DNA of 64,000 bases from a bacterium (lineage in GTDB: Bacteria; Hydrothermota; Tepidihabitantia; B3-TA06), in the NCBI GenBank assembly GCA_012517375.1, contig JAAYVC010000101.1, positions 19,438 to 83,437 on the forward strand, read 5' to 3'. How positions within the stretch are numbered: position 1 is the stretch's first letter; every line of letters starts with the position of its first letter. The notes beneath the pieces are model-generated. The model did not search any database and had not been told where the DNA came from. It saw only the letters and a program-made list of their open reading frames with translations. Below are positions 3,919 to 49,303 of the stretch, piece by piece. Made by a program: the position numbers and the translations under genes.

Positions 3919-4078
3919 CACACTGTTTTCGAGTTTTTGAAGGTGTATGAGAAAGTGTTACGGGGTGCTACGAGGTGTTACGTCTTAGACTGACGCTACG
4001 TATAGGAATACTTAGTAGAGATACGGGTGTTACGGGTATGGGGCTTGACAAACTCGAAATTTTGATTAAAGTAAACTT

Positions 4079-5299
4079 GTGAATACCGAACGCAAGCTCG
4101 AAACACTTGGTACGGCGGCGCAGTTCGATCTCTGCGGCGCCTGTCTGAACCCAAAGAACGACCCGAAGGCGCACCGTCAGAAGGGCCACATGGACCGCTG
4201 GGTATATCCTGCTGCAATGCCTGACGGCAAGACTATTCTTCTTTTCAAGGTTCTGATGGCAAACAGGTGCGAAAACAACTGCCTTTACTGCGTAGCAAGG
4301 AAGGGGAACGACCAGCCTGTATTATCCTTCGAACCTGAAGAACTTGCACGGTTGTTTATTGAAATGCTTGTCAAAAGACTTGTTGAGGGATTATTTCTCT
4401 CTTCTGCAATCCTTGGGAACGCGCAGCGGATGATGGACAAGATGCTGGCTACAGTCGAGCTTTTGCGGTTTCGATACCGCTTTCCTGGTTATGTTCACCT
4501 CAAGGTGCTTCCTGGATCGAGGATGGACCAGATTGAGCGGGCTGTACAGCTAGCAACAAGAGTAAGCGTGAACCTTGAGGCGCCTTCGCCAGAGCGTCTT
4601 TCCTTAATCGCGCCGGATAAGAGGTATGCCGAGGATTTGTTTAAGCAGATACTCGTTATGCACAAGCTTATAACGAAGTTCAACGAAGGAATTAAAGGTA
4701 TTCCGCCAAGGGGACAGACCACCCAGTTCATAGTGGGCGCCGCAGGCGAATCGGATGCAGAGATTCTCGGAATAACCAATACTCTTTACGGCAAGCTGAA
4801 CCTCTCAAGGGTCTTCTTCAGCGCATTCCAGCCTGCAGAAGGCACGCCGTTCGATTCAAGAAAACCTACGCCATTATTAAGGGAACACAGGCTGTACCAG
4901 ACCGATTTCCTTTTTCGCAGATACGGTTTCAAGCCAGAAGAGGTGGGATTGACCCAGGAAGGCAATCTGCCTTTGTCTAAAGATCCGAAAACGATATGGG
5001 CGGACGCTCACCCCGAGTTTTTTCCTCTGGAGATAAATACAGCCCCAGAACACGCTCTCTTAAGGGTTCCCGGACTAGGTCCCAAAACCATCAGAAAAGT
5101 CTTGAAGATACGGAGATATCACAAGTTCAGGAGCATTGAGGAGCTTGCAAACCTCGGAATGCGCACAAGAATCTCCTCAGGGTATCTATTGCTTAATGGC
5201 CGTCTTGCAAGCTCTCGATACACGCAAAAGGAGATCTGGCAGCCTGAGAAGATAGTTTTCGGAAAGATAACAGAGGCGCCCCTTCCCAACTTACCGTAA
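4079..5299 (+). CDS. putative DNA modification/repair radical SAM protein (TIGR03916-like) with C-terminal helix-hairpin-helix
   Basis: CENNCLYC = CxxxCxxC radical-SAM cluster motif; C-terminal LLRVPGLGPKTIRKVLKIRR HhH; GTG start. Confidence 0.7.
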   Translation: MNTERKLETLGTAAQFDLCGACLNPKNDPKAHRQKGHMDRWVYPAAMPDGKTILLFKVLMANRCENNCLYCVARKGNDQPVLSFEPEELARLFIEMLVKRLVEGLFLSSAILGNAQRMMDKMLATVELLRFRYRFPGYVHLKVLPGSRMDQIERAVQLATRVSVNLEAPSPERLSLIAPDKRYAEDLFKQILVMHKLITKFNEGIKGIPPRGQTTQFIVGAAGESDAEILGITNTLYGKLNLSRVFFSAFQPAEGTPFDSRKPTPLLREHRLYQTDFLFRRYGFKPEEVGLTQEGNLPLSKDPKTIWADAHPEFFPLEINTAPEHALLRVPGLGPKTIRKVLKIRRYHKFRSIEELANLGMRTRISSGYLLLNGRLASSRYTQKEIWQPEKIVFGKITEAPLPNLP

Positions 5300-5385: not shown

Positions 5386-5799
5386 ATGAATCTTGTACGT
5401 TTTGGCGTTTCCATGGAAAAAGACCTTCTTAAACAGTTTGATTATTCAATTGAAAAGAAGGGGTATCCGAATCGTTCAGAGGCGTTCAGGGACCTTGTCA
5501 GGCAGTGCCTTTTAGAGAAGATTGAATACGACCCTGCAACGTCCTCGATAGGAGTAATCTCGTTTGTTTACGAGCACGAGCATAAGGATATTTCGAGAAG
5601 ACTTGTAAGTATAGGTCATTCGAAGCTGGGTGAAATAATCTCATCCCTTCATATACATATTGATGAACACCAGTGCATGGAGGTAATAGTAGCTAAGGGT
5701 ACGGCCGAAGAACTGAAAAGGCTATCCGATCAAATCCTTGCGTCAAAGGGTGTCCTTCACGGCCAGCTAATGCTTTCTCCGCTCAAAAAACACCACTAA
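5386..5799 (+). CDS. nikR: nickel-responsive transcriptional regulator NikR (ribbon-helix-helix + ACT-like metal-binding domain)
   Basis: N-terminal RHH RFGVSMEKDLLKQFDYSIEKKGYPNRSEAFRDLVRQ; HEHEH and HIHIDEHQCMEV match NikR high-affinity Ni site H..H..H-x-C. Confidence 0.8.
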   Translation: MNLVRFGVSMEKDLLKQFDYSIEKKGYPNRSEAFRDLVRQCLLEKIEYDPATSSIGVISFVYEHEHKDISRRLVSIGHSKLGEIISSLHIHIDEHQCMEVIVAKGTAEELKRLSDQILASKGVLHGQLMLSPLKKHH

Positions 5800-9633: not shown

Positions 9634-9960
9634 GGTTAAGGTTTAATTCTACGCGGGATGCAAAGGCTTGTCAACAACCCGTACCCTTGAGGGGCATTTT
9701 CATATTTACCTGGAACCTCCGGTTCCCTCTAAAGGAAATAACACCGCAGTACACCCCACAAAAACAACAAGTTTTTTGCGGGGACACCATTATTGGGTCC
9801 GAAGAAAACAGGGAATATTTTTTCCCACAATTTGTATTGACAAAAATACATCGATAGATACAGAAATATCGGTAAGACAGGGAGGAGAGCTACCTGCCCA
9901 AGCATCCGGGCTTAAGGACGGTGTTGTCTGTCTTGCTATAAACAACCTATAGGAGGCTCA

Positions 9961-11304
9961 ATGTCAACCCTAAAAAAACTCGTCTTTTTCTTTGCTCTGA
10001 TGCTTACAAGCGTGAACGTCTTCGCCGAACAGCTTGAGGGCTCAGGGTCGCCTTGGGGAGTCAAAGGTACAGCGACCGTAACCTCTAACTTCGGTTACCT
10101 GGGGCATACTTCTTACGGCGCCTACGGTGAGTGCGAGTCATCCGGAAACTATGGATTGCTGGGCAGTGATTCGTACGGGGTTTTCGGGAAATACGGCTCT
10201 TCAAACACTTACGGGTTCCTGGGTTCTTCGAACTACGGGGTTTACGGCAGGCATTCTTCAGGTAACTACGGATATCTCGGCACCTGGAACTATGGCGCTT
10301 ACGCCCGCAACGCAAACGGCAACACTGCTATTCTGGGCGATCCGACAAGAGGAATCTATGCGTACGGAACGGGAACAAATTCCTTTGCAGGTCATTTTTC
10401 CCACTCAAGCGGCACTTATGCGTATCTGGCAGAAAACGCTATGGCCGGCCATTTCAAGGGCGCTGGAACGGAAGAAGTCCATATAGGTTTGCCTGGAATC
10501 GGTTTAAACGCCCGTGGCAGCGAATATGCGGGCAACTTCATCGGCGATGTCAATATCTCAGGCGACCTCTACGTTTCAGGCGACAAGGACAACGTCATTA
10601 AGCTCGACGACGGCAGCTGGGTGACCATGTCAGCAACAGAGGCTCCGTATCCGGAGTACACCATATCCGGACGTGCTAAGCTTGTGAACGGCGCCGTAAG
10701 TATTGAATTCGAGGAGCCTTACCCGCAGGTGATCTCAAAGGAAATACCAATAAAGGTCATAGTAACACCAGAGGGTTCTGCCAGTCTTATTTACGTCAAG
10801 GACGTTTCGGTTAAGGGCTTCACCGCCGCATCAGGGTTCGGCGACGAAAACGCAACCTTCAATTGGATAGCTATCGCACGCGTGAAAGGCAAGGAACAGA
10901 AGCAGGACTACAAAGCGGTCACTGCAAAGATGCAGAGACTGGAGGTTTCCCAGAAACTGCTAGGACTCTCGACTTTAAGCCTTCCTTCGTCGCAGAACGG
11001 GGAGGAAACCCACCAGGTGCAGTCGTCTTCTGAAACGAATCTATCCGTTGAAGACGTTGGCTCTACAGGCACAGTAAACATTCACTACCAGCTTCTGAAA
11101 CAAGCCAGCGTTACGCTCTCCGTGTTTGACGTATCAGGCAGACAAGTGAAGACGCTTGAAAGCGGTCAAGCGGGCGCAGGCAACCACACCCTCTCATGGG
11201 ACTGTACGGACGATGCAGGGCGCAAGGTTTCAGCGGGCGTCTACTATGTGAGACTCGATGACGGCACAGCCGTTAAGAATGCAAAGGTGACCATAATAAA
11301 GTAA
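9961..11304 (+). CDS. secreted Tyr/Gly-repeat protein with T9SS C-terminal sorting domain
   Basis: signal peptide; ~9 tandem ~10-aa repeats (NYGYLG/SYGVFG/NYGVYG...); C-terminal VTLSVFDVSGRQV...GVYYVRLDDG CTD. Confidence 0.7.
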   Translation: MSTLKKLVFFFALMLTSVNVFAEQLEGSGSPWGVKGTATVTSNFGYLGHTSYGAYGECESSGNYGLLGSDSYGVFGKYGSSNTYGFLGSSNYGVYGRHSSGNYGYLGTWNYGAYARNANGNTAILGDPTRGIYAYGTGTNSFAGHFSHSSGTYAYLAENAMAGHFKGAGTEEVHIGLPGIGLNARGSEYAGNFIGDVNISGDLYVSGDKDNVIKLDDGSWVTMSATEAPYPEYTISGRAKLVNGAVSIEFEEPYPQVISKEIPIKVIVTPEGSASLIYVKDVSVKGFTAASGFGDENATFNWIAIARVKGKEQKQDYKAVTAKMQRLEVSQKLLGLSTLSLPSSQNGEETHQVQSSSETNLSVEDVGSTGTVNIHYQLLKQASVTLSVFDVSGRQVKTLESGQAGAGNHTLSWDCTDDAGRKVSAGVYYVRLDDGTAVKNAKVTIIK

Positions 11305-11346: not shown

Positions 11347-11456
11347 CCTCATCATGCTCTTCCAGAGTTTCCCTCTCCCGATGGGAGAGGGATTAAGGGT
11401 GAGGGGGATATCTAATTCCATTTCCCTGATGGAGGGGGTAGGGGGCGGGGGGACTC

Positions 11457-11485: not shown

Positions 11486-11609
11486 CGCACATGGCAACAC
11501 CCGTAACACCTTCCAGAGGGTGTAAAGCTAAAAAAATTCCAAACTCCCTGACCCGAAAGTGTGCGCGTCTCTTTCGGGTTTTCTTCAAGCACCAAACGTA
11601 GGAGTGTTA

Positions 11610-13054: not shown

Positions 13055-13307
13055 GCACTGGCTTCACAATCACGAAATTAGACCCGGCGTTTACAATTAA
13101 ACATGACTTCAAAGAGTCAAACTTGACTCCATTTCTATTCTCGAAATGAGGCATTGTTTCTTCAATCTTGACTTCTCCCACTCAAATTTTGTCCTATTTT
13201 TGACCATCTTTTGACCAACTTCTGTCCATAAAAAGAGGCCTTGTTTCTTGAATCCAGGCTCATGGGGTCACCTAAAGAATGATTCCAGCATTCTTTTTGG
13301 GGGCATA

Positions 13308-15377: not shown

Positions 15378-16002
15378 CCTGCTTATCCCATTTCTTCAGA
15401 AATTCCTTTGCTTTTTTCCGTGTTTTCGGGCTATCGCCAGCGAGCGCTTGCCGGACAAAACGAAGTATTCCTTCTTTATCCTTTGCACCTTCGAAATAAG
15501 AATCAAATGAATCTATGGCTCCTGCCTTCAAAAGATACTTGTGTTTTTGAGAAGTCTTATCTATATCAAGTAGTTTCTCTGTTATTCTGGGCTCCAGCTC
15601 CGGTCTTGCATGGATTATCCTTGCGGAGAGCGCTGCCACGTGCCCGGCGACTACGATGCTGTCCTCAAGAAGCGCATAGAATCTGGGAAATATCTCATCA
15701 AAACGTTTGTCCTTGTCGGCAGATAGAAGATTGACGATGAGATAAACCGCAATGTATTTATGATAGGTATTCTCACTATCAAGCAATTCAGAAAACAGAT
15801 TCCATTTATGGTAGAGCCTTTCGGCATCCATTTCGGATAACATCATAAGAGTATTGAAGCTGTTTGAACGGATAACATCCTTTTTTGATAAGATTCCTTC
15901 GAGAAGTTCGTCGACAAATCTGTTGTCATACAACGCTTTCTGAGCGAGCTTTTTTATATCCGCTTTTTTGTTTTCAAGATCAGGAGTAAGACTCATTTTC
16001 AC
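15370..16002 (-). CDS. hypothetical helical-repeat (HEAT-like) protein; possibly DNA alkylation repair (AlkD-like) family
   Basis: all-alpha repeat pattern; weak resemblance only. Confidence 0.3.
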   Translation of the reverse strand: MKMSLTPDLENKKADIKKLAQKALYDNRFVDELLEGILSKKDVIRSNSFNTLMMLSEMDAERLYHKWNLFSELLDSENTYHKYIAVYLIVNLLSADKDKRFDEIFPRFYALLEDSIVVAGHVAALSARIIHARPELEPRITEKLLDIDKTSQKHKYLLKAGAIDSFDSYFEGAKDKEGILRFVRQALAGDSPKTRKKAKEFLKKWDKQDA

Positions 16003-16116
16003 TCTCCTTGAGACTGAGGATAGCTACTCTACTTGAATTGTCAAGCGCCTCATACCGATCCTTGACAAGAGGACTGATGCAAGGTATGATAGCATAAAAC
16101 GGCTAAGGAGGAATCT

Positions 16117-16593
16117 ATGCAGGATTCAGATATAAGAATTGTCCGGCTGGGACCCATGCGGGTCGCTTATGCAAAAGGATTCGGAACGAGTCCGGAGGCG
16201 GAAGCGTGGAATAAACTTCTTTCGTGGGCTAAAGAAAAAGGAATGCTTGACGATACGGAAGACTTTCGTCTGTTCGGATTCAACAATCCGGAACCGACAC
16301 CGGACAAACCGGAATATGGTTACGAGCAGTGGATTACCGTCGAAGTCGATGTGGAGCCCGGTGGAGACGTGCAAATCAAGGATTTCCCGGGAGGGCAGTA
16401 TGCTGTTCTTCGTACAAAACTGAGTTCAATCACTGACTCATGGAAAAGTATGGCGGAATGGATAAAGAACAGCGAGTATGACTTCGGTCCATATCAATAC
16501 CTCGAGGAATGCCTTGGTGTTACGGGCTTTGAAGGGGGAGGACCCGATCTCGAAACCGAGTTCGACATCTACATGCCGATCAAGGAAAAATAA
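16117..16593 (+). CDS. GyrI-like small-molecule-binding (AraC effector-binding) domain protein
   Basis: 158 aa; GyrI-like fold signature at the N-terminus (VRLGPMRVAYAKGFG...) and matching overall length. Confidence 0.5.
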   Translation: MQDSDIRIVRLGPMRVAYAKGFGTSPEAEAWNKLLSWAKEKGMLDDTEDFRLFGFNNPEPTPDKPEYGYEQWITVEVDVEPGGDVQIKDFPGGQYAVLRTKLSSITDSWKSMAEWIKNSEYDFGPYQYLEECLGVTGFEGGGPDLETEFDIYMPIKEK

Positions 16594-16596
16594 GGG

Positions 16597-17373
16597 ATGT
16601 CAAGGTTAACGCTTCTTTCGTGGAACGTCAACGGAATCCGGGCAGCCGAGCGTAAGGGGTTTCTTGACTGGTTCAAGAAGACTCAACCCGACATTCTTGG
16701 CATTCAGGAGACCAAGGCGCAGGCCGGGCAGATAAAAGACGAACTTCTCTCACCCCATGGTTATATCACATACTGGTCGAGCGCCGAACGCAAGGGCTAT
16801 GCGGGCACAGCGGTTTTCACGAAGCGAATCCCTGATAGAGTCGAATATGACCTCGGTATCGAACGCTTCGCGGGCGAGGGACGCTTGATAATACTGCATT
16901 ATCCCGAGTTCGTTCTGTTCAACGTCTACATTCCTAACGGCGGCGCCGAAAACCATCGTGTACCCTTCAAGCTTGAATACTCTGACCGAATGCTTGAGGT
17001 TGCGGAGGGGTTTCGCAAAGAGGGGAGAGGGGTAGTGATATGCGGCGACCTGAACACCTGCCACAAGGAGATTGATATCGCGAGGCCGAAGGATAACGTC
17101 AATCATACCGGCTTCATGCCCATCGAACGGGAGTGGATGGACAAGTTCGTCTCCTTTGGCTACGTCGACACGTTCAGGCATTTCTATCCTGACAGACGCG
17201 ACGCATACACATGGTGGGACCCGCGCTTCCATGCCCGAGACCGCAACGTGGGCTGGAGGCTCGACTACTTCTTTATTTCCAATGAACTTATATCGAATCT
17301 CAAATCCGCGTCCATCCTTTCGGACGTGCAAGGCTCCGATCACTGCCCGGTAGGAATTGAGCTCGATGTTTGA
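16597..17373 (+). CDS. xth: exodeoxyribonuclease III (AP endonuclease)
   Basis: LLSWNVNGIRA, GDLNTCHKEIDIARP, SDHCPV C-terminal motif. Confidence 0.9.
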   Translation: MSRLTLLSWNVNGIRAAERKGFLDWFKKTQPDILGIQETKAQAGQIKDELLSPHGYITYWSSAERKGYAGTAVFTKRIPDRVEYDLGIERFAGEGRLIILHYPEFVLFNVYIPNGGAENHRVPFKLEYSDRMLEVAEGFRKEGRGVVICGDLNTCHKEIDIARPKDNVNHTGFMPIEREWMDKFVSFGYVDTFRHFYPDRRDAYTWWDPRFHARDRNVGWRLDYFFISNELISNLKSASILSDVQGSDHCPVGIELDV

Positions 17374-36620: not shown

Positions 36621-38405
36621 GTGAGCATACGCGTACTCCCTCCTGAAACTGCAGCAAAAATAGCGGCAGGCGAGGTCATACAGAGACCTTCGTCCGTTGT
36701 CAAGGAATTGATAGAGAACTCACTTGACGCCGGAGCTACACGAATAGAGGTGTATCTCGAAGAGGGAGGCAAGAGTCTTATACGGGTTGCGGACAACGGC
36801 GAAGGCATAGCGCCGCACGAGGTGGAGCTTGCAGTCAAGCGTTTTGCAACGAGCAAACTCGAGACTGCGGAGGACCTTGTGCGGATTTCATCGTTCGGCT
36901 TCCGCGGCGAAGCGCTTGGTTCCATCGCTGAGGTGAGCGAGCTTTCTATCGAGACCCAGAAGCAAGGCTCTGAGAGCGGCATTTTAATGAGAGTGCACGC
37001 AGGAAAGATGGTGAGCAGGGAGGAGGTCGTGCGCATGCCGGGGACGACCGTAACCGTCTCCCGGCTCTTCTTCAACCTTCCGGCGCGCAGGGCGTTCCTT
37101 AAAAGCGAACCCTACGAGCGCAGGCTTGTGCTAGAGGTAGTGCGCAACTATGCCATCTGCTTTAATGATGTATATTTTGATGTCAAAGGTCCGAAACAGA
37201 CTTACGCTTGCTATCAGCCTCAGGATGACTGGATTACGCGGTTAAAGGAGATTTTGCCTGACTTGAAGAACGTCGAGTTGATTCCTATCGGAGCAAGTCA
37301 CTCCCAGCTTTCCGTAAAGGGAGTGATTGTCAGACCTGACCAGGCAAGAGAACTTTCGAGGATGCAGCGCACGTTCTTCAACTCAAGACCCGTTCTCTAC
37401 CGAGCAATATTCAGGGCCGTTCTCGAGGGATTCGGACCTCAGCCAGGTTCCCAGATACCTTTCTTCGTGTTGATGCTCTCCTCTCCCCCAGAACTTCTCG
37501 ATGCGAACATACATCCTGCAAAGACAGAGGTGCGTTACCGCGACGAACGCTTTCTCTTCGATTACATCTCCCAACTCGTGAGGAAAGGTCTGCACGGCCA
37601 GACTGTTGCGAACCTTGATATAGTGGAGCGTCCGGGATTCCGGCGTGGAAGCGAGTGGATAAGTGAGATGGATGCAAAACAGCTCTCTATGGATACCAAT
37701 CCCTCTTTGCAAACACGCATTGAAGGAACACTGGATGAGACGGATGTTACGGGTGTTAAGGGTGTTACGGGTGTTACGGGTACGGGCGGTGCTACTAGCG
37801 GTGAATACCGAGAGAGTGCAGACGAGCATCCAAAGGCTTTTCGGGAATCCCAGACTTCTTTCTGGCAGCTTCAGAACTCATACATTCTTGCTCAGATTGC
37901 CTCGGGGCTTGTGATTGTCGATCAGCATGCGGCGCACGAACGGATACTGTACGAACAGATGCTCGAGAGACTGAGTTCGAATTCCGCAAAACAGCCGCTT
38001 TTATTCCCATTGATAGTCGAACTGACGCCGGAGGAGTTCGCGACCTTTGAGGAGATAGAAAGCGAACTTTCGGAGCTTGGACTCGACGCGGAACCCTTCG
38101 GACCTAACCAGGTGATGGTGGAGACTCTTCCTGCAGATTCTCGGATGAGCGCTTCCGATTTGCGGGAGCTGTTCAGGGAGTTCAACGCAACGAGCGAGGT
38201 CAAGCTCGGAAACCGCGATAGGATGGCCGCACTCATTTCGTGCAAAGCGGCTGTTAAAGCGGGACGCGCGCTGTCCCAGGCGGAGATGGAATCCTTAATC
38301 AACAGACTCTTCAGCTGCAAGAACCCTTACTTCTGTCCGCATGGAAGACCCACGGTTATAAAGTTCACGATGGATGATCTTGACAAGCGATTCGGTCGAA
38401 TATAG
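36621..38405 (+). CDS. mutL: DNA mismatch repair protein MutL
   Basis: GTG start gives MSIRVLPPETAAKIAAGEVIQRPSSVVKELIENSLDAGA (cf. E. coli MPIQVLPP...); TTGACA-17-TAGAAT promoter just upstream; C-terminal dimerization domain. Confidence 0.9.
   Translation: MSIRVLPPETAAKIAAGEVIQRPSSVVKELIENSLDAGATRIEVYLEEGGKSLIRVADNGEGIAPHEVELAVKRFATSKLETAEDLVRISSFGFRGEALGSIAEVSELSIETQKQGSESGILMRVHAGKMVSREEVVRMPGTTVTVSRLFFNLPARRAFLKSEPYERRLVLEVVRNYAICFNDVYFDVKGPKQTYACYQPQDDWITRLKEILPDLKNVELIPIGASHSQLSVKGVIVRPDQARELSRMQRTFFNSRPVLYRAIFRAVLEGFGPQPGSQIPFFVLMLSSPPELLDANIHPAKTEVRYRDERFLFDYISQLVRKGLHGQTVANLDIVERPGFRRGSEWISEMDAKQLSMDTNPSLQTRIEGTLDETDVTGVKGVTGVTGTGGATSGEYRESADEHPKAFRESQTSFWQLQNSYILAQIASGLVIVDQHAAHERILYEQMLERLSSNSAKQPLLFPLIVELTPEEFATFEEIESELSELGLDAEPFGPNQVMVETLPADSRMSASDLRELFREFNATSEVKLGNRDRMAALISCKAAVKAGRALSQAEMESLINRLFSCKNPYFCPHGRPTVIKFTMDDLDKRFGRI
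37743..37779 (+). repeat. in-frame 9-bp tandem repeat (GTGTTACGG/GTGTTAAGG x4) inside mutL linker, encoding (VTG)n
   Basis: gatgttacgg gtgttaagg gtgttacgg gtgttacgg gtacgggcgg; same motif as intergenic GTGTTACGGG sites. Confidence 0.8.
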
Positions 38406-42391: not shown

Positions 42392-44491
42392 TTGAACGTG
42401 GAGCTTTTGACTGCAAAACGCTTTACGGCGTTAAGATGTAGTCTTGTGATAGGAATTGGAGTAATCGCCGGATTCCTCCTCCCCATTCCCTGGTGGGTTT
42501 TCTTGGCAGCAGGTTTTGCTAGTATTGTTCTTGTTTTTTTCTTCTCGGAGAAATTCCTTTACCTGACGATATTTCTTCTTGCTTTCGCTTACGGTAATAT
42601 TTCCATTCCATCAGGGATATCTAAAGAGACCTACAACGTTCGGATTGTTACGGAAGGCAAAATAGGAGAAAGAGAGGGAGAATATTCGACATTCACGATT
42701 GATTCACCTTCATTTTTGAAGGCAAGGAAAGTTCTTATTTATACGAACAGAGATATTACTCCTGGAACAGTATTGAGGGTAAAGGGAGAAATACTTCCCC
42801 TATCATTTCCGCGCAATCCCGGACTTTCTGACAGAAACGCTCGCTTAAAAAGGGAAGGTGTCATCGGACGCATAAAGGTTAGTGAGTTGACAATAATTTC
42901 CCCCCCTCAGGGCATCGATGCCTGGATAGCACGGGCAAGACAGGGAGTTATCAAGAGATCGAGCGTCCTCTTTGGTCCTGAAGCCGCGATATTCTCTGCA
43001 ATCCTTCTTGGTAAAACCGATCTTGTCTCCGAGGAACTTTTTTTTGATATGAGGAGAACGGGAACCCTTCATCTCCTGGCAGTATCGGGTCTTAATGTCG
43101 GAATCCTTGTCGCTTTTCTTGCTTTTCTTTTCAAGCTTTTAAACATACCTCGAAAATGGTCGCTACCCTTGCTTGTGGTGCTTCTCGCGGGTTATGTAGC
43201 TCTTGTAGGACCTTGCCCTTCGATTATAAGATCCTCGCTCATGTGCGTGGCGGTAGCGATAGGCTTTCTCCTCGATCGCAAGACCATGCCTTTGAATAAT
43301 CTCTCGATTGCAGGTTTAGCCATAATCCTCTGGAAGCCATCCCAGATTCTCGATTTAGGCTTCCAGCTCAGTTTCAGCGCAACTCTGTCTATAATCCTTG
43401 CCGTTGAATTGCTAAGTCATACATATTCTAAACTTAATCAGCCAAAGATTCCAAAATGGCTTAATCAATGGATAATCCTGCCCTTGGCTGTATCGCTCGC
43501 TGCGACCATATTTACCTTGCCTTTTCTGGCAAGTCAGTTTCATCAAATAACATTATCGTCTGTACTAGCCAATCTGCCGGCAGTGCCGCTCGTCTCATTC
43601 GTGTTTCCTTTGGGTCTGGTTGCCCTGCTCTTGAGTCTTATCTGGCTGCCTTTAGGCGAGATAATTGGTTATGCCGTAAGCGGATTATTGTGGTTTCTTG
43701 AAAATATACTGCACGTTTTGCCTGGAGAGCTTTTAGCGGCGGCAAGCTGGCCTGCCGCTGTAACGATTGCCCTTTTTGCTTCCGCTCTGCTTTTATATAC
43801 AGAAAAAGGGAGAAGATATCGATTTGCATTATCTGCACTGATTCTTCTTGCTGGAATCAATATCGGTATATGGCCCTGGGCCCTCAAGGACAGTAGACCG
43901 ACACTGACTCTTCTCGATACATATTACGGCAACGTCGCTGTTCTTGAATCCGATGGCCGCACTATCCTTCTGAATACAGGCTCAAAAAACGAAACAGTTG
44001 TTAGAAACTACCTTAACTCTAGAGGCTTAAGAACAATTGACTACGTGCTTTGCCTCTCAGATAAAGCGGGCGATATATCAGCTCTGGATACACTCATTAA
44101 ATACTTCAACATAAGTGAAGCAGGACTTATTCTCAAACAAAAGAATATGACAGTCGATGCGGCAGTCGATAGTAATGAAGTCAGAAAAGGGCTTCGAGGA
44201 GCTTCGCAGATTATACGGATACCGGCTGCAGGTATCTTAAAACTGCCCTCAGTAAATATTGCTTACGATCTAACCAGGTACTCGAAACCTTATTACGAAG
44301 TTCTTTCCAGAAATAAAAAGGTTGTTTTCACTTCTGAACTTGAAAAAATCGATTCAAATGCAATTAACTATCTCCTGAAAAGCAATTTAGAGCCAAATCT
44401 TAAAGGAGTCAGGCTGATCTCCAAGGAACCAGAGAACGGCGTTAAGACGGAGGTAATTCGTGAAACGGGCGGTATCAGGATCGATCTCTGA
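42392..44491 (+). CDS. comEC: DNA internalization competence protein ComEC/Rec2
   Basis: competence-domain motif GTLHLLAVSGLNVGIL; polytopic membrane; C-terminal MBL-like region. Confidence 0.8.
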   Translation: MNVELLTAKRFTALRCSLVIGIGVIAGFLLPIPWWVFLAAGFASIVLVFFFSEKFLYLTIFLLAFAYGNISIPSGISKETYNVRIVTEGKIGEREGEYSTFTIDSPSFLKARKVLIYTNRDITPGTVLRVKGEILPLSFPRNPGLSDRNARLKREGVIGRIKVSELTIISPPQGIDAWIARARQGVIKRSSVLFGPEAAIFSAILLGKTDLVSEELFFDMRRTGTLHLLAVSGLNVGILVAFLAFLFKLLNIPRKWSLPLLVVLLAGYVALVGPCPSIIRSSLMCVAVAIGFLLDRKTMPLNNLSIAGLAIILWKPSQILDLGFQLSFSATLSIILAVELLSHTYSKLNQPKIPKWLNQWIILPLAVSLAATIFTLPFLASQFHQITLSSVLANLPAVPLVSFVFPLGLVALLLSLIWLPLGEIIGYAVSGLLWFLENILHVLPGELLAAASWPAAVTIALFASALLLYTEKGRRYRFALSALILLAGINIGIWPWALKDSRPTLTLLDTYYGNVAVLESDGRTILLNTGSKNETVVRNYLNSRGLRTIDYVLCLSDKAGDISALDTLIKYFNISEAGLILKQKNMTVDAAVDSNEVRKGLRGASQIIRIPAAGILKLPSVNIAYDLTRYSKPYYEVLSRNKKVVFTSELEKIDSNAINYLLKSNLEPNLKGVRLISKEPENGVKTEVIRETGGIRIDL

Positions 44492-46382: not shown

Positions 46383-46443
46383 TTGTAAACTAAAGAAAAA
46401 ACGGCTCTTAGGCCGTTTTTTCTTTAACCTAAATTATTCAAAG

Positions 46444-46547
46444 GTTGGGGTCCCCGTGAAGCTACGGAGTAGATTCGTGGGGTGAAAAAAAACTGGTCAA
46501 AAGTAGGTCAAAAGTGGGACAAAAGCTACCCAAAAGGTGGTCAAAAC
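46444..46547. repeat. second copy of GGGGTCCCC hairpin element followed by five ~11-bp phased direct repeats (NGGTCAAAAG)
   Basis: GGGGTCCCCGTGAAGCTACGGAGTAGATTCGTGGGGTGAAAAAAA then tggtcaaaag/taggtcaaaag/tgggacaaaag/ctacccaaaag/gtggtcaaaac. Confidence 0.6.
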
Positions 46548-46689: not shown

Positions 46690-47784
46690 ATGCCCATTTG
46701 GAAAATTACTCAAAAAGGTCCTGTTCGGGTTTCTGAAACTAAATTAAAACAAGAGAAACTTCTTGAAGAGCATCTTGAGGATTGGGTTGTCAATGATTCG
46801 TCAATCCTAGGGGAACCCCTTTTGATAATAGGTCGACAGGTAATGATTCCTGATGTAAAAGACAGGCTCGACATCCTTGCTCTCGACCCTCAAGGAAACG
46901 CCGTAATTGTTGAGTTGAAGAGGGGGAAACTCAAGGACCCTGTGGACATGCAAGCTTTGAGGTATGCAAGCTATATCTCCAAGTGGCATTTCGAAGATTT
47001 CGAGAATCAAGCGCGAGCTTACTGGGGAAGGGATGGCGATGTTGAATTCAACTTCAATGATACATATGAGCAGTTTTGTACTGAGGCAGGTATTGATGAA
47101 GTTCCTGACATAAACTCAGATCAAAGAGTAATCATAGTGGGGTCTGAGGTAAAAGATAAACTGGGTAGCGTTGCTTTGTGGTTGCACGACCACAGTATTG
47201 ACGTAAAGGTTATTGAGGTTGAGGTTTTTCGTGAAGGGGAAACGCTCTTACTAGAACCCCATGTTATCATCCCTTTACCCGTAAGTAGATTCCATGATAC
47301 AGGCCGGGCTCCCAGAGGTGATATTTCAAAACCCTGGATTGGTGACGGAAAAACATGGCATCTGGATAAAAGATGTAGTTCCACAACAAAAAACATGCTA
47401 CTGACACTTGATGATCTTATTCGGGATAACTTGGATGTTGAAGAAACAAGATGGGATCAGAAATTCTATGTTGCATACCGAATCAATAATTATAATTGGC
47501 TAAGTGTTGGAACGCATCGAAAAATATTGATTCTTGATTTCCTCGTTAAACCTTCTGCCTTCAAGCTAACGGATTTGGCTAAGCGTTTGGAAGTAGAACA
47601 GTTCGATAAAGAGGAATCAATCGCTGAGAAGTTTGGATTACCAAGCTCTGTTTTCATAGAGAAAATAAACGAAAAAGTGGATCGAGTCAGGCTTAGGATT
47701 AAGGAAGGGTTCAACCTCAACAGTGAAGCGTTCCTTACCTTCTTAAAGGATGCGTTCAAGGCGTCTCCATTTTCGAAAGAGTAA
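46690..47784 (+). CDS. PD-(D/E)XK (NucS/RecB-like) nuclease-domain protein, uncharacterized C-terminal region
   Basis: LLIIGRQVMIPDVKDRLDILALDPQGNAVIVELKRGK...QALRYASYI = D...E-L-K restriction-endonuclease-like core. Confidence 0.5.
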   Translation: MPIWKITQKGPVRVSETKLKQEKLLEEHLEDWVVNDSSILGEPLLIIGRQVMIPDVKDRLDILALDPQGNAVIVELKRGKLKDPVDMQALRYASYISKWHFEDFENQARAYWGRDGDVEFNFNDTYEQFCTEAGIDEVPDINSDQRVIIVGSEVKDKLGSVALWLHDHSIDVKVIEVEVFREGETLLLEPHVIIPLPVSRFHDTGRAPRGDISKPWIGDGKTWHLDKRCSSTTKNMLLTLDDLIRDNLDVEETRWDQKFYVAYRINNYNWLSVGTHRKILILDFLVKPSAFKLTDLAKRLEVEQFDKEESIAEKFGLPSSVFIEKINEKVDRVRLRIKEGFNLNSEAFLTFLKDAFKASPFSKE

Positions 47785-48105
47785 GCTAGAGAACTTTCAG
47801 ATTCGCAAAGTTAAGAATATCCTCGCGAGGGAACCTTCAGCTTATCATGTAGTGCTATGAGATTGCTTCGCGGTTAAAACCGCTCGCAACGACAAACATT
47901 CGAAACTATTACCTTAAAGTAGGGGCCGACTTTTAAGTCGGCCCGGTTTAAATTACATTTCGGGCTGACCTAACGCGAAGCGGATGCTGAGGCCATCAAC
48001 GTCAGCCACTACGACCTAAAAAAATCTGAGAGCGTGTTACGGGCGGGTGTTACGGGTTGACATTTCCCCCTCCTCCCCTATGCTTTGGGAACCAAAGGAG
48101 GCGTA

Positions 48106-48671: not shown

Positions 48672-49154
48672 ATGGACGTACTAGAGGCGCTTTTAACCAG
48701 GCGGAGCATTCGTAAGTATACCTCAAAACCCGTATCGAAGGAGACGGTTGAAACTCTGCTGCGGGCGGCAATGGCCGCGCCGTCGGCAGGCAACCAGCAG
48801 CCGTGGCAGTTCGTGGTCGTGACCGACCGGACGGTGCTCGACGAACACCCGGTTTGCAAGGGCGCGCCGTGCGCTATCCTCGTTTGCGGGGACGCGAATC
48901 TCGAAAAGTACAAGGGATACTGGGTAATAGACTGCACGCTCGCGACGGCCAACATCCTTGCGGCCGCGCACGCCATGGGCCTGGGCTCGGTCTTTCTGGG
49001 AATCTACCCGCACGAAGAATCCATGAACAATCTGCGGAAAGCTCTGGGACTTGGAGATAATCTCATCCCACTCACCCTGCTACCCCTGGGATATCCGGCT
49101 GAGGAGAAGCCCGCATCGAACCGTTTTGACCCCGCAAGAATAAGCTGGAAGTAA
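48672..49154 (+). CDS. nitroreductase family protein
   Basis: LLTRRSIRKYTSKPVSKETVETLLRAAMAAPSAGNQQPWQFVVV; GC content visibly higher than flanks. Confidence 0.8.
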   Translation: MDVLEALLTRRSIRKYTSKPVSKETVETLLRAAMAAPSAGNQQPWQFVVVTDRTVLDEHPVCKGAPCAILVCGDANLEKYKGYWVIDCTLATANILAAAHAMGLGSVFLGIYPHEESMNNLRKALGLGDNLIPLTLLPLGYPAEEKPASNRFDPARISWK

Positions 49155-49303
49155 CGTCCGTAACACCCCGAGATCGCTCGGAGATTGTGCTTGAAAAACT
49201 TCCTAATTCGAGTATAGTTATTCTCCGATTTCTTTAACCACTTTGTAAGGAGGAGTCGATGCTTGTCAATTCGAGAACAATAGAAGTTAATTATCTTTGG
49301 AAG

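What the first reader, a model, noticed from the sequence alone, without database searches (positions are those of the whole stretch)
3955..4050. Recurrent GTGTTACGG(G) motif in promoter-proximal intergenic DNA, also present as a tandem array inside mutL
The 9-12-mer (G)GTGTTACGGG occurs in small clusters just upstream of -35-like TTGACA boxes: 3955-3966, 3975-3985 and 4027-4038 (before the radical-SAM repair gene), and 48033-48044 plus 48046-48057 (before the DUF2188 gene). It also occurs in inverse orientation at 11497-11510, downstream of the TTGACA-17-TAAAAT promoter of the 11610 gene, and at 49158-49169 between the nitroreductase and bioY genes. The identical 9-bp unit is tandemly repeated four times inside the mutL coding sequence (37743-37779). 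This suggests either a binding site for a global DNA-binding factor or a short dispersed repeat that has also seeded a simple-sequence repeat in a mismatch-repair gene.
Basis: seen in the sequence. Interest (0 to 1): 0.55.

Follow-up and report, generated by a model that had tools for sequence, protein, structure and literature searches.

The report
Dispersed 9-bp repeat that invades genes
The motif GTGTTACGG is real, but it looks less like an ordinary regulator binding site than like the unit of a short tandem repeat, found only in one group of uncultured WOR-3 bacteria, that has been copied into many places in the genome, including in-frame into conserved genes, by a mechanism still unknown.

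Summary
GTGTTACGG occurs 9 times in the window against 0.2 expected, and GGTGTTACGGG is the window's most frequent 11-mer. The window comes from a candidate division WOR-3 bacterium.

Across 171 kb from related WOR-3 genomes there are 41 exact copies against 0.6 expected. Across 277 kb from other phyla there are none. Exact copies are hugely enriched while isolated one-mismatch copies are at chance level, which is unlike a transcription-factor site.

Orthologue comparisons show the unit was inserted de novo and in frame into conserved genes:
- GyrI-like protein: 0, 1, 2 or 4 copies in different species.
- MutL linker: only in this species.
- TGT, ComEC and DUF2752: in another species.

Joints between units vary in length, and inside genes the spacing is always a multiple of 3. 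Presence varies among sister lineages, and some contigs end in arrays.

A subset of arrays ends 1-10 nt upstream of a -35 box in the same orientation (5 of 23 clusters, 0 in the mirror control). The promoter link is therefore partly real but is not the defining property.

Best reading: a self-propagating dispersed nonamer repeat, closest to the TAACTGA repeats of Beggiatoaceae. It is filtered by selection, and some copies may have been co-opted at promoters. The copying mechanism is unknown.

The parts
3955..3983 (+). Three units at 10-bp period (GTGTTACGGG GTGCTACGAG GTGTTACGTC): the distal cluster upstream of the radical-SAM/HhH gene
   Evidence: TRF period 10, 2.8 copies. The orthologous position in L131 (9787-9831) carries six units at 9-bp period.
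3984..4026 (+). Probable decayed remnant of the ~110-nt element that sits inside a split unit in relatives (low confidence)
   Evidence: Alignment with L131 9832-9930 and L131 15860-15944. The similarity is weak.
4018..4037 (+). Promoter-proximal unit (GAGATACGG + GTGTTACGGG) ending 9 nt upstream of the -35 box
   Evidence: In L131 an exact unit lies 10 nt upstream of the orthologous -35 box. Unchanged in 9 contigs of the same species.
4045..4072 (+). Sigma-70-like promoter TTGACA-16-TAAAGT of the radical-SAM gene (GTG start at 4079, apparently leaderless)
   Evidence: conserved in L131.
9679..9744 (-). Short copy of the composite element (GTGTTA|TTTCC...GGGTA|CGG) that abuts the tRNA-Lys promoter (-35 box at 9674-9669)
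   Evidence: The L131 orthologue (15841-15966, - strand) carries three exact units there, one of them 4 nt upstream of the -35 box.
11492..11509 (-). One exact unit plus a decayed unit (GTGTTGCCA), inverted, just downstream of the 11457 promoter. The decayed unit supplies a -35-like TTGCCA on the minus strand.
   Evidence: Appears absent from the L131 stretch that looks orthologous when read by eye (16030-16120; not formally aligned).
16517..16525 (+). Single in-frame unit (Gly-Val-Thr) inserted near the 3' end of the GyrI-like gene
   Evidence: Orthologues carry 0 (L163, L159 and eight other orthologous proteins), 2 (L158) or 4 (L131) copies at exactly this point.
37740..37800 (+). Array in the disordered linker of MutL (DVTGVKGVTGVTGTGGATSG): 4 units plus a decayed tail
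   Evidence: TRF score 70. Absent from 19 WOR-3 MutL orthologues. Other strains have the same copy number with point differences.
48034..48055 (+). Two exact units 13 bp apart, ending 1 nt upstream of the -35 box of the DUF2188 gene promoter (48057-48084)
   Evidence: The contig of a related species (L168) begins just after this -35 box.
49149..49166 (-). One exact unit plus a decayed unit (ACGTTACTT), inverted, overlapping the nitroreductase stop codon and 25 nt upstream of the bioY -35 box
   Evidence: L168 has four decayed units (CCGTAAYAC-like) at the orthologous place in the same orientation.

Best explanation
GTGTTACGG is the unit of a dispersed short tandem repeat family specific to one clade of candidate division WOR-3. 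It behaves like self-propagating or mutationally propagated DNA rather than like a classical regulator site.

Shown directly:
- The same exact 9-mer occurs at many unrelated loci in several species whose MutL proteins are only 62-67% identical.
- It occurs singly or in head-to-tail arrays of 2-6 units.
- The joints between units vary (0-6 extra G/T-rich bases).
- It has been inserted de novo into coding sequences where orthologues have nothing, and then changed in copy number.
- Inside genes the spacing is always a multiple of 3, and the insertions fall in linkers or loops.
- Sister lineages differ in having exact or decayed copies.

Inferred:
- A sequence-specific copying process keeps producing exact units and places them at new, often G-rich, sites. 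Replication slippage then expands or contracts the arrays.
- Selection removes disruptive insertions. What survives is intergenic copies and in-frame copies encoding harmless Gly-Val-Thr or Val-Leu-Arg stretches.
- Some copies next to -35 boxes may have been retained because they help, or at least do not hurt, the promoter.

The nature of the copying machinery is not established. Candidates are templated insertion at breaks, or recombination linked to the ~110-nt element that always sits inside a split unit.
For: Enrichment and clade specificity:
- 41 exact copies against 0.56 expected in 171 kb of WOR-3 loci, and 0 against 0.97 expected in 277 kb from other phyla.
- L131 has 10 copies in 21 kb. 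L171 has 15 copies in 21.7 kb.

All-or-none pattern: 42 exact copies, but only 31 isolated one-mismatch copies, with roughly 20 (scaled from the dinucleotide shuffles) to 37 (block shuffles) expected by chance.

De novo in-frame insertions:
- GyrI-like gene: CTTGGCTTT in L163 against CTTG(GTGTTACGG)nGCTTT with n = 1 (window), 2 (L158) or 4 (L131).
- MutL linker: only in the window species among 20 orthologues.
- In L171: TGT gains 16-17 aa (DRCVTGRVTGGCVTGVTGVTGR), ComEC gains 12 aa in a different reading frame (GVLRVVLRG), and the DUF2752 protein has SVTGVTGVTG. All three are absent from the orthologues.
- In L171 an array replaces the last two codons and the stop codon of IMPDH.

Array structure: variable joints, with periods of 9, 10, 11, 12, 13 and 15 bp.

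Patchiness:
- L131/L169 have 12 exact copies in 43 kb. Their sister L170 (MutL 82% identical) has 0 in 21.7 kb, with decayed copies at an orthologous place.
- L182 has 1 copy and L183 has 0.

Other points:
- Contigs L159, L160 and L162 end in arrays.
- No within-species copy-number variation was seen, so these are not contingency loci.
- A precedent exists for the same short unit as dispersed direct repeats with unknown mechanism: TAACTGA repeats, PMC4679880.
Against: - No transposase, reverse transcriptase or nuclease that could do the copying was found in the window or the fetched flanks. The active-copying step is therefore inferred only from the insertion pattern.
- Five clusters (4 independent promoters) lie 1-10 nt upstream of a co-oriented -35 box, with none in the mirror control. 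The radical-SAM proximal copy is conserved between two species. This hints at function.
- A single unit directly after the tmRNA 3' end is conserved between L169 and L171.
- The sample is only about 190 kb from about 8 species. No complete genome could be scanned.
- Binding sites can lie in linker-coding DNA. In a viral contig family the same 9-mer forms arrays inside a Prim-Pol/helicase gene. A coding location alone therefore does not exclude function.
Confidence: 0.6

Rival explanations
1. The 9-mer is the binding site of a global transcription factor or nucleoid protein. Arrays next to -35 boxes act as upstream activating (or repressing) elements of a regulon that includes DNA-repair genes. 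Coding copies are incidental.
For: - Units end 9, 10, 1, 4 and 3 nt upstream of co-oriented sigma-70-like promoters: the radical-SAM gene in two species, DUF2188, tRNA-Lys, and an antisense promoter at 11497. None occur in the mirror control.
- Neighbouring genes include the radical-SAM/HhH repair protein, an exonuclease III-like gene after the GyrI-like gene, and mutL.
- The unit sequence is conserved across species with about 64% MutL identity.
- Arrays of short contiguous repeats are bound by some ribbon-helix-helix repressors (own knowledge: MetJ metboxes, omega heptads).
Against: - No excess of isolated near-consensus sites.
- Variable distance to the -35 box and mixed orientation: about 6 of 11 intergenic clusters point away from the nearest gene.
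- The tRNA-Lys promoter exists with an exact unit in L131 and without one in the window.
- Copies inside TGT, ComEC, DUF2752 and MutL are far from any start codon.
- The sister lineage L170 has lost exact copies.
- Most TTGACA promoters of the window have no unit.
Confidence: 0.2
2. The 9-mer is a DNA uptake signal sequence. It would be enriched by biased uptake and recombination during natural transformation, as in Neisseria (DUS) and the Pasteurellaceae (USS).
For: - It is an exact, highly over-represented 9-10-mer shared by a clade and absent from other phyla.
- It is found on both strands, in intergenic DNA and in tolerated reading frames of genes.
- ComEC is encoded in the window at 42392-44491.
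- Copies lie near gene ends and terminators: the tmRNA trailer and the nitroreductase and IMPDH stop codons.
- Known uptake sequences are biased towards genome-maintenance genes (own knowledge: Davidsen et al. 2004).
Against: - Density is about 0.1-0.7 copies per kb and clustered, against about 1 per kb and evenly spread for DUS/USS (own knowledge).
- Head-to-tail arrays are not a feature of known uptake sequences.
- Copies arise here by clean 9-bp insertions, not by point mutation.
- There is no excess of one-mismatch variants.
Confidence: 0.07
3. The arrays are selected as G-quadruplex-forming elements, (GGGTGTTAC)n, that modulate transcription or replication.
For: Arrays of 4 or more units match the pattern G3-N6-G3-N6-G3-N6-G3: mutL 37751, L131 19462 and L171 148. 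Several copies also sit next to extra G-runs upstream of -35 boxes.
Against: Only 3 of 23 clusters have four G-tracts. Single and double units and CGA-ending variants (L131 9787-9804) cannot form a quadruplex. The conserved part is GTGTTAC, not the G-run.
Confidence: 0.03

Closest known systems
TAACTGA direct repeats of marine Beggiatoaceae, some Cyanobacteria and Bacteroidetes (MacGregor 2015, PMC4679880)
   Same: - One specific short unit occurs as dispersed head-to-tail sets of 2-6 copies at many loci.
- Sets are mostly intergenic. Some overlap stop codons and some lie inside ORFs at tolerant positions. Some lie at contig ends.
- Related variant units split the sets.
- Phylogenetic distribution is patchy.
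- The spreading mechanism and the binding factor are unknown.
   Different: - The unit is 7 bp, so in-frame expansion needs three copies.
- Most sets end 1 nt upstream of a start codon, which suggests a translational role. The WOR-3 9-mers instead lie upstream of -35 boxes or elsewhere.
- Clean in-frame insertions into conserved enzymes (TGT, ComEC, MutL) documented by orthologue comparison are a feature of the WOR-3 family.
Cyanobacterial contiguous heptamer repeats (STRR-type), e.g. upstream of recF and recO in Nostoc PCC 7120 (bioRxiv 10.1101/2022.06.06.494920)
   Same: Short contiguous repeats of a fixed unit recur near promoters or start codons across the genome, including at DNA-repair genes. 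A regulatory role and an unidentified binding protein have been proposed.
   Different: There are several different heptamer units. No coding insertions are reported there. It is a different phylum and a different sequence.
Rickettsia palindromic elements (selfish DNA inserted in frame in protein-coding genes; reviewed in PMC10969869)
   Same: A repeat family inserted in frame into unrelated conserved genes at positions compatible with protein function.
   Different: RPEs are about 100-150 bp, palindromic and single-copy at each site. Here the unit is 9 bp, non-palindromic and tandemly iterated.
Tandem repeats of Borg extrachromosomal elements (bioRxiv 10.1101/2022.05.18.492195)
   Same: Perfect tandem repeats evolve fast in both intergenic DNA and ORFs. 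In ORFs the units are multiples of 3 and create disordered stretches.
   Different: Each Borg repeat region has its own unit and arises independently. Here one and the same unit recurs at all loci and across species.
Replication-origin iterons lying inside a replication gene
   Same: In a family of viral contigs (L046 and relatives) the very same 9-mer forms direct and inverted arrays. They lie in the linker-coding part of a Prim-Pol/AAA_25 gene and just downstream of it. This shows that such arrays can be protein-binding sites inside coding DNA.
   Different: Those arrays are confined to one locus per replicon, include inverted copies, and occur in GC 54-59% contigs unrelated to WOR-3. They were retrieved because the scan asked for this motif, so the identity of the sequence may be coincidence.

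Membership tests
Dispersed short direct-repeat family (TAACTGA / STRR kind) | The same short unit occurs as head-to-tail sets at many unrelated loci of one genome | tested here: met
   The window has 7 loci and 9 exact units. L131 has 4 loci and L171 has 6 loci. TRF reports period 9-15 arrays.
Dispersed short direct-repeat family (TAACTGA / STRR kind) | Lineage-restricted, patchy phylogenetic distribution | tested here: met
   41 copies in 171 kb of WOR-3 loci against 0 in 277 kb of other phyla. L170, L182 and L183 have 0-1 copies.
Dispersed short direct-repeat family (TAACTGA / STRR kind) | Mostly intergenic, with exceptions at gene ends and in tolerant parts of ORFs | tested here: met
   About 10-11 of 18 loci are intergenic although the sequence is mostly coding. 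The coding copies lie in linkers, loops or termini.
Transcription-factor binding site / regulon | Degenerate consensus with many near-matches in promoter regions | tested here: not met
   42 exact copies against 31 isolated one-mismatch copies, with about 20-37 expected by chance.
Transcription-factor binding site / regulon | Consistent position and orientation relative to promoters | tested here: inconclusive
   5 of 23 clusters lie 1-10 nt upstream of a co-oriented -35 box, against 0 in the mirror control. The other clusters are inverted, downstream of the promoter or inside genes.
Transcription-factor binding site / regulon | A cognate DNA-binding protein | not testable with these tools
   No candidate was found next to the sites. 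NikR at 5386-5799 is the only ribbon-helix-helix protein nearby, and it is a nickel regulator by Pfam.
DNA uptake sequence (DUS/USS) | About one copy per kb, dispersed singly, arising by point substitution | tested here: not met
   0.14 copies per kb in the window, in clusters. The copies originate as 9-bp insertions.
Contingency-locus simple sequence repeat (phase variation) | Copy number varies within a species and switches a gene on or off | tested here: not met
   Copy numbers are identical in 10 contigs of the same species at the radical-SAM locus and in 2 at mutL. The unit is a multiple of 3, so it causes no frameshift.
MITE / Rickettsia-palindromic-element-like mobile element | Defined element of about 100-400 bp with terminal or internal palindromes | tested here: not met
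   The 9-mer itself is not palindromic and has no inverted ends. A separate ~110-nt element sits inside split units, but it shows no clear terminal inverted repeats and only weak structural support.
G-quadruplex motif | Four or more G3 tracts with loops of 7 nt or less | tested here: not met
   Only 3 of 23 clusters qualify.
Known RNA family | Match to an Rfam model | tested here: not met
   At gathering thresholds the window matches only tmRNA and three tRNAs.

The most novel reading that the evidence does not exclude
The units are written into the chromosome by a dedicated sequence-specific machinery. One option is RNA-templated synthesis at breaks, a bacterial counterpart of interstitial telomere-like repeats. 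The unit G(n)(TG)(m)TTAC with its stuttering G-run resembles fission-yeast GGTTAC(A) telomere repeats (own knowledge). Another option is a nuclease or replication protein that uses GTGTTA|CGG as its joint, linked to the ~110-nt element that always sits inside a split unit. That would be a new kind of micro-mobile DNA able to remodel conserved proteins in frame.
Probability: 0.12. Interest if true: 0.9.

Novelty: new variant of a known kind. Interest (0 to 1): 0.62.

Why it matters
A single exact 9-mer has stayed identical across species whose MutL proteins are only about 64% identical, yet it keeps appearing at new sites, including inside essential enzymes. That requires an unknown sequence-specific copying or homogenising process.

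- Finding that process would explain a class of dispersed short repeats (TAACTGA, STRR) whose origin has been open for decades.
- It would show a route by which bacteria gain new disordered protein segments.
- In practice, the repeat breaks short-read assemblies of these uncultured bacteria.
- It is a convenient marker of one WOR-3 clade.

Tried and rejected
- **Chance or composition:** rejected by shuffles.
- **Assembly artefact:** rejected. The same features occur in independent Logan, NCBI and ENA assemblies and keep reading frames open.
- **Known RNA:** no Rfam match at the sites. The consensus fold of the ~110-nt element is weak (-2.8 kcal/mol, no compensatory pairs).
- **Literature:** a full-text search for the motif string found only primers.
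- **Close relatives in JGI metagenome contigs:** none closer than 44% identity.
- **Viral contig scan for paired units:** it saturated at more than 120 hits.
  - My first guess, that these are collagen-like Gly-X-Y coding repeats, was wrong. They are heterogeneous repeats of period 15-30, open in all frames.
  - The hits also include an iteron-like family next to a Prim-Pol gene. None are evidently from WOR-3.
- **Viral scan for the ~110-nt element core:** only chance hits in one unrelated phage gene family.
- **Gene insertion bounded by motif copies:** the FlgD_ig gene 9961-11304 (present in the window, no counterpart seen in L131) was considered. The breakpoints, read by eye from the sequences, do not coincide with units.
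- **Truncation of the nitroreductase by the inverted unit:** rejected. The C-terminus is only 2-3 residues shorter than in homologues and identical in length to the closest one.
- **Other motif classes:** sigma-54 or ECF promoter, DnaA box, parS and LexA box were compared by eye with consensus sequences from memory. None fits.
- **Mobile-element genes:** no reverse transcriptase or transposase in the window (and the gene tables).

Full report
**Observation.** Exact GTGTTACGG lies at 3955, 4027, 16517, 37762, 37771, 48034 and 48047 on the + strand, and at 11501 and 49158 on the - strand. That is 9 copies against 0.21 expected from dinucleotide-preserving shuffles. With one mismatch there are 17 copies against 6.4 expected. 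GGTGTTACGGG is the most frequent 11-mer of the whole window.

Sigma-70-like promoters follow two clusters directly:
- TTGACA-16-TAAAGT at 4045.
- TTGACA-16-TATGCT at 48057.

The inverted copy at 11501 lies just downstream of TTGACA-17-TAAAAT. The inverted copy at 49158 lies between the nitroreductase gene and bioY.

Two corrections are needed. The mutL array (TRF period 9, 4.7 copies, the best tandem repeat of the window) has two identical units, two one-mismatch units and a decayed tail.

**Source organism and relatives.**
- The radical-SAM/HhH protein (4079-5299) is encoded identically on 13 metagenome contigs.
- Its closest genome relative (80% identity) is a candidate division WOR-3 MAG, GCA_965649265.1 (locus L131).
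- MutL homologues named by their sources are also WOR-3.
- The upstream region is virtually identical in nine contigs of the same species.

**The motif is a clade-wide feature.**
- L131 (21 kb) has 10 exact copies.
- L171, from another WOR-3 species with MutL 64% identical, has 15 in 21.7 kb.
- L159, L160 and L162, from a further species, end in arrays GTGTTACGGG x4 with periods 10, 10 and 11.
- Altogether 171 kb of WOR-3 loci hold 41 exact copies against 0.56 expected. The 277 kb flanking radical-SAM homologues in other phyla hold none against 0.97 expected.

The distribution inside the clade is patchy. L131 and L169, which come from one genome, have 12 copies in 43 kb. The sister lineage L170 (MutL 82% identical) has none in 21.7 kb, only decayed copies at an orthologous place. 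L182 has one copy and the distant L183 has none.

**It behaves as inserted, expanding DNA.**
- *GyrI-like gene.* The ten orthologous proteins without a unit read ...ECL-GF... (L163 DNA: CTTGGCTTT). The window has one unit, L158 has two and L131 has four perfect units at exactly that point, encoding (GVT)n.
- *MutL.* The (VTG)n stretch exists only in the window species among 20 WOR-3 orthologues with otherwise hypervariable linkers.
- *L171.* Arrays are in-frame insertions absent from the orthologues. They occur in TGT (+16-17 aa in a loop), in ComEC (+12 aa, in a different reading frame, Val-Leu-Arg) and at the N-terminus of a DUF2752 protein. Another array replaces the last two codons and the stop codon of IMPDH.
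- *Spacing.* Between units it is 9, 10, 11, 12, 13 or 15 bp because of extra G/T-rich bases. Inside genes it is always a multiple of 3.
- *Stability within a species.* Strains of one species show no copy-number change, so these are not phase-variable loci.

**It does not look like a typical regulator site.**
- Exact copies are about 70-fold enriched. Isolated one-mismatch copies (31) are no more frequent than chance (about 20-37).
- Orientation relative to neighbouring genes is mixed.
- Most TTGACA promoters in the window have no unit.
- The tRNA-Lys promoter has an exact unit 4 nt upstream of its -35 box in L131, but only a decayed one in the window.

**The promoter proximity is nevertheless not pure chance.**
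- In 5 of 23 unit clusters a co-oriented sigma-70-like promoter starts 1-10 nt after the last unit. These are the radical-SAM gene in two species, DUF2188, tRNA-Lys, and an antisense promoter-like site at 11497 whose -35 box is itself a decayed unit.
- The mirror control gives 0 of 23, and the genome-wide expectation is 0.42.
- Allowing for the higher promoter density of intergenic DNA, my rough estimate is about 1 expected.
- At orthologous intergenic sites arrays persist but change. The nitroreductase-bioY spacer has 1-2 units in the window and four decayed units in L168. A single unit directly after the tmRNA 3' end is shared by L169 and L171 and lost in the window.

**An associated larger element.** A ~110-nt sequence recurs in five places:
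- L131 9832-9930.
- L131 15860-15944 (- strand).
- L169 2582-2636 (with an internal deletion).
- L170 2593-2690.
- Window 9679-9744 (- strand, short copy).

A decayed trace may lie at window 3984-4026. The sequence reads TTTCCTYT...CTGCTGATGAAAATGACC...GGGTCAGRCCCTGCCCCGAAGGGGTA. It is always flanked by GTGTTA on the left and CGG on the right, as if it sat inside a split unit. RNAalifold gives it no convincing structure, and it has no Rfam match in the window. Its relation to the spread of the 9-mer is unknown.

**Mechanism.**
- *Shown:* dispersal of one exact unit, de novo insertion, change in copy number, filtering for reading frame, and patchy lineage distribution.
- *Inferred:* a sequence-specific copying or homogenising process must exist. 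Neutral repeats would drift apart across species this divergent, and slippage alone cannot create the first copy in an unrelated gene.

I could not identify the machinery. No reverse transcriptase, transposase or HUH nuclease is present in the window or flanks.

The alternatives are:
- *Global binding protein:* 0.2.
- *Uptake signal sequence:* 0.07. ComEC is present, but density, clustering and origin by insertion do not fit.
- *G-quadruplex:* 0.03. Only 3 of 23 clusters qualify.

**Comparison with known systems.**
- *TAACTGA direct repeats* of Beggiatoaceae, cyanobacteria and Bacteroidetes are the closest described phenomenon. They form 169 sets of 2-6 copies. Most are intergenic, some overlap stop codons or lie in ORF peripheries, and some lie at contig ends. 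Their distribution is patchy and their mechanism unknown (PMC4679880).
- *Cyanobacterial contiguous heptamers* near recF and recO promoters are a further parallel.
- *Rickettsia palindromic elements* share in-frame invasion of conserved genes, but they are about 150-bp palindromes.
- *Borg tandem repeats* share in-frame, disorder-creating expansion, but each has its own unit.

The WOR-3 nonamer differs from all of these in three ways. Its unit is a multiple of three, its clean insertions into housekeeping enzymes are documented by orthologue comparison, and a subset of copies abuts -35 boxes. I therefore class it as a new variant of a known kind.

**Limits.**
- Only about 190 kb from about eight species could be examined.
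- Promoters are consensus predictions.
- The small-ORF and hairpin impressions for the ~110-nt element are by eye only.

Noticed in passing
window 13187-13229 (+) and 46494-46546 (-): A second dispersed tandem repeat. The unit TTTTG(A/T)CC recurs at an 11-bp period (about 3-4 and 4.8 copies) at two unrelated intergenic loci. One lies between the tmRNA terminator and a gene with a weak NucS_C-like match (46690-47784). Contig L166 begins inside this array.
   Followed up: partly
window 9679-9744 (-); L131 9832-9930; L131 15860-15944 (-); L169 2582-2636; L170 2593-2690: A ~110-nt element that always lies inside a split 9-mer unit (GTGTTA|...|CGG). By eye, the two L131 copies differ mainly at third codon positions of a possible small ORF (MKMT..THP.GQTLPR). 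They also show one compensatory change in a hairpin (ATGA/TCAT against ATGC/GCAT). RNAalifold gives no support.
   Followed up: partly
L046 3510-3551 and 4660-4772 (also L017, L065, L081, L084, L113, L122): A family of GC 54-59% viral contigs carries the same 9-mer as direct and inverted arrays. They lie inside the linker-coding part of a Prim-Pol/AAA_25 replication gene and just downstream of it, which looks like origin iterons.
   Followed up: partly
viral loci L062, L079, L130, L033 and many others: More than 120 viral contigs contain paired GTGTTACGG within longer tandem repeats of period 15, 18 or 30 that are open in all three frames. Their nature is unknown, and they are not collagen-like.
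   Followed up: partly
window 4045-4081: The radical-SAM/HhH gene appears leaderless. The -10 box TAAAGT ends at 4072, the GTG start is at 4079, and there is no Shine-Dalgarno sequence. This arrangement is conserved in L131.
   Followed up: no
L169 19796-19804 (-) and L171 19471-19479 (-); window 46385-46400: A single unit sits two bases after the tmRNA 3' end, before the terminator, in two divergent species. In the window it is replaced by TTGTAAAC.
   Followed up: partly
window 9961-11304: A gene encoding a FlgD_ig / Por_Secre_tail protein lies between the tRNA-Lys gene and the 11457 promoter. No counterpart was seen in the corresponding interval of L131 (about 15966-16687), judged from the ORF list and by eye. 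It is either an insertion in the window or a deletion in L131.
   Followed up: partly
window 11430-11456; L131 16030-16060; window 4036-4044; L131 9957-9966: G-rich tracts (GGGGTAGGGGGCGGGGGG, GGGGGAGGGGG) lie immediately upstream of several -35 boxes in this lineage, whether or not a 9-mer is present.
   Followed up: no
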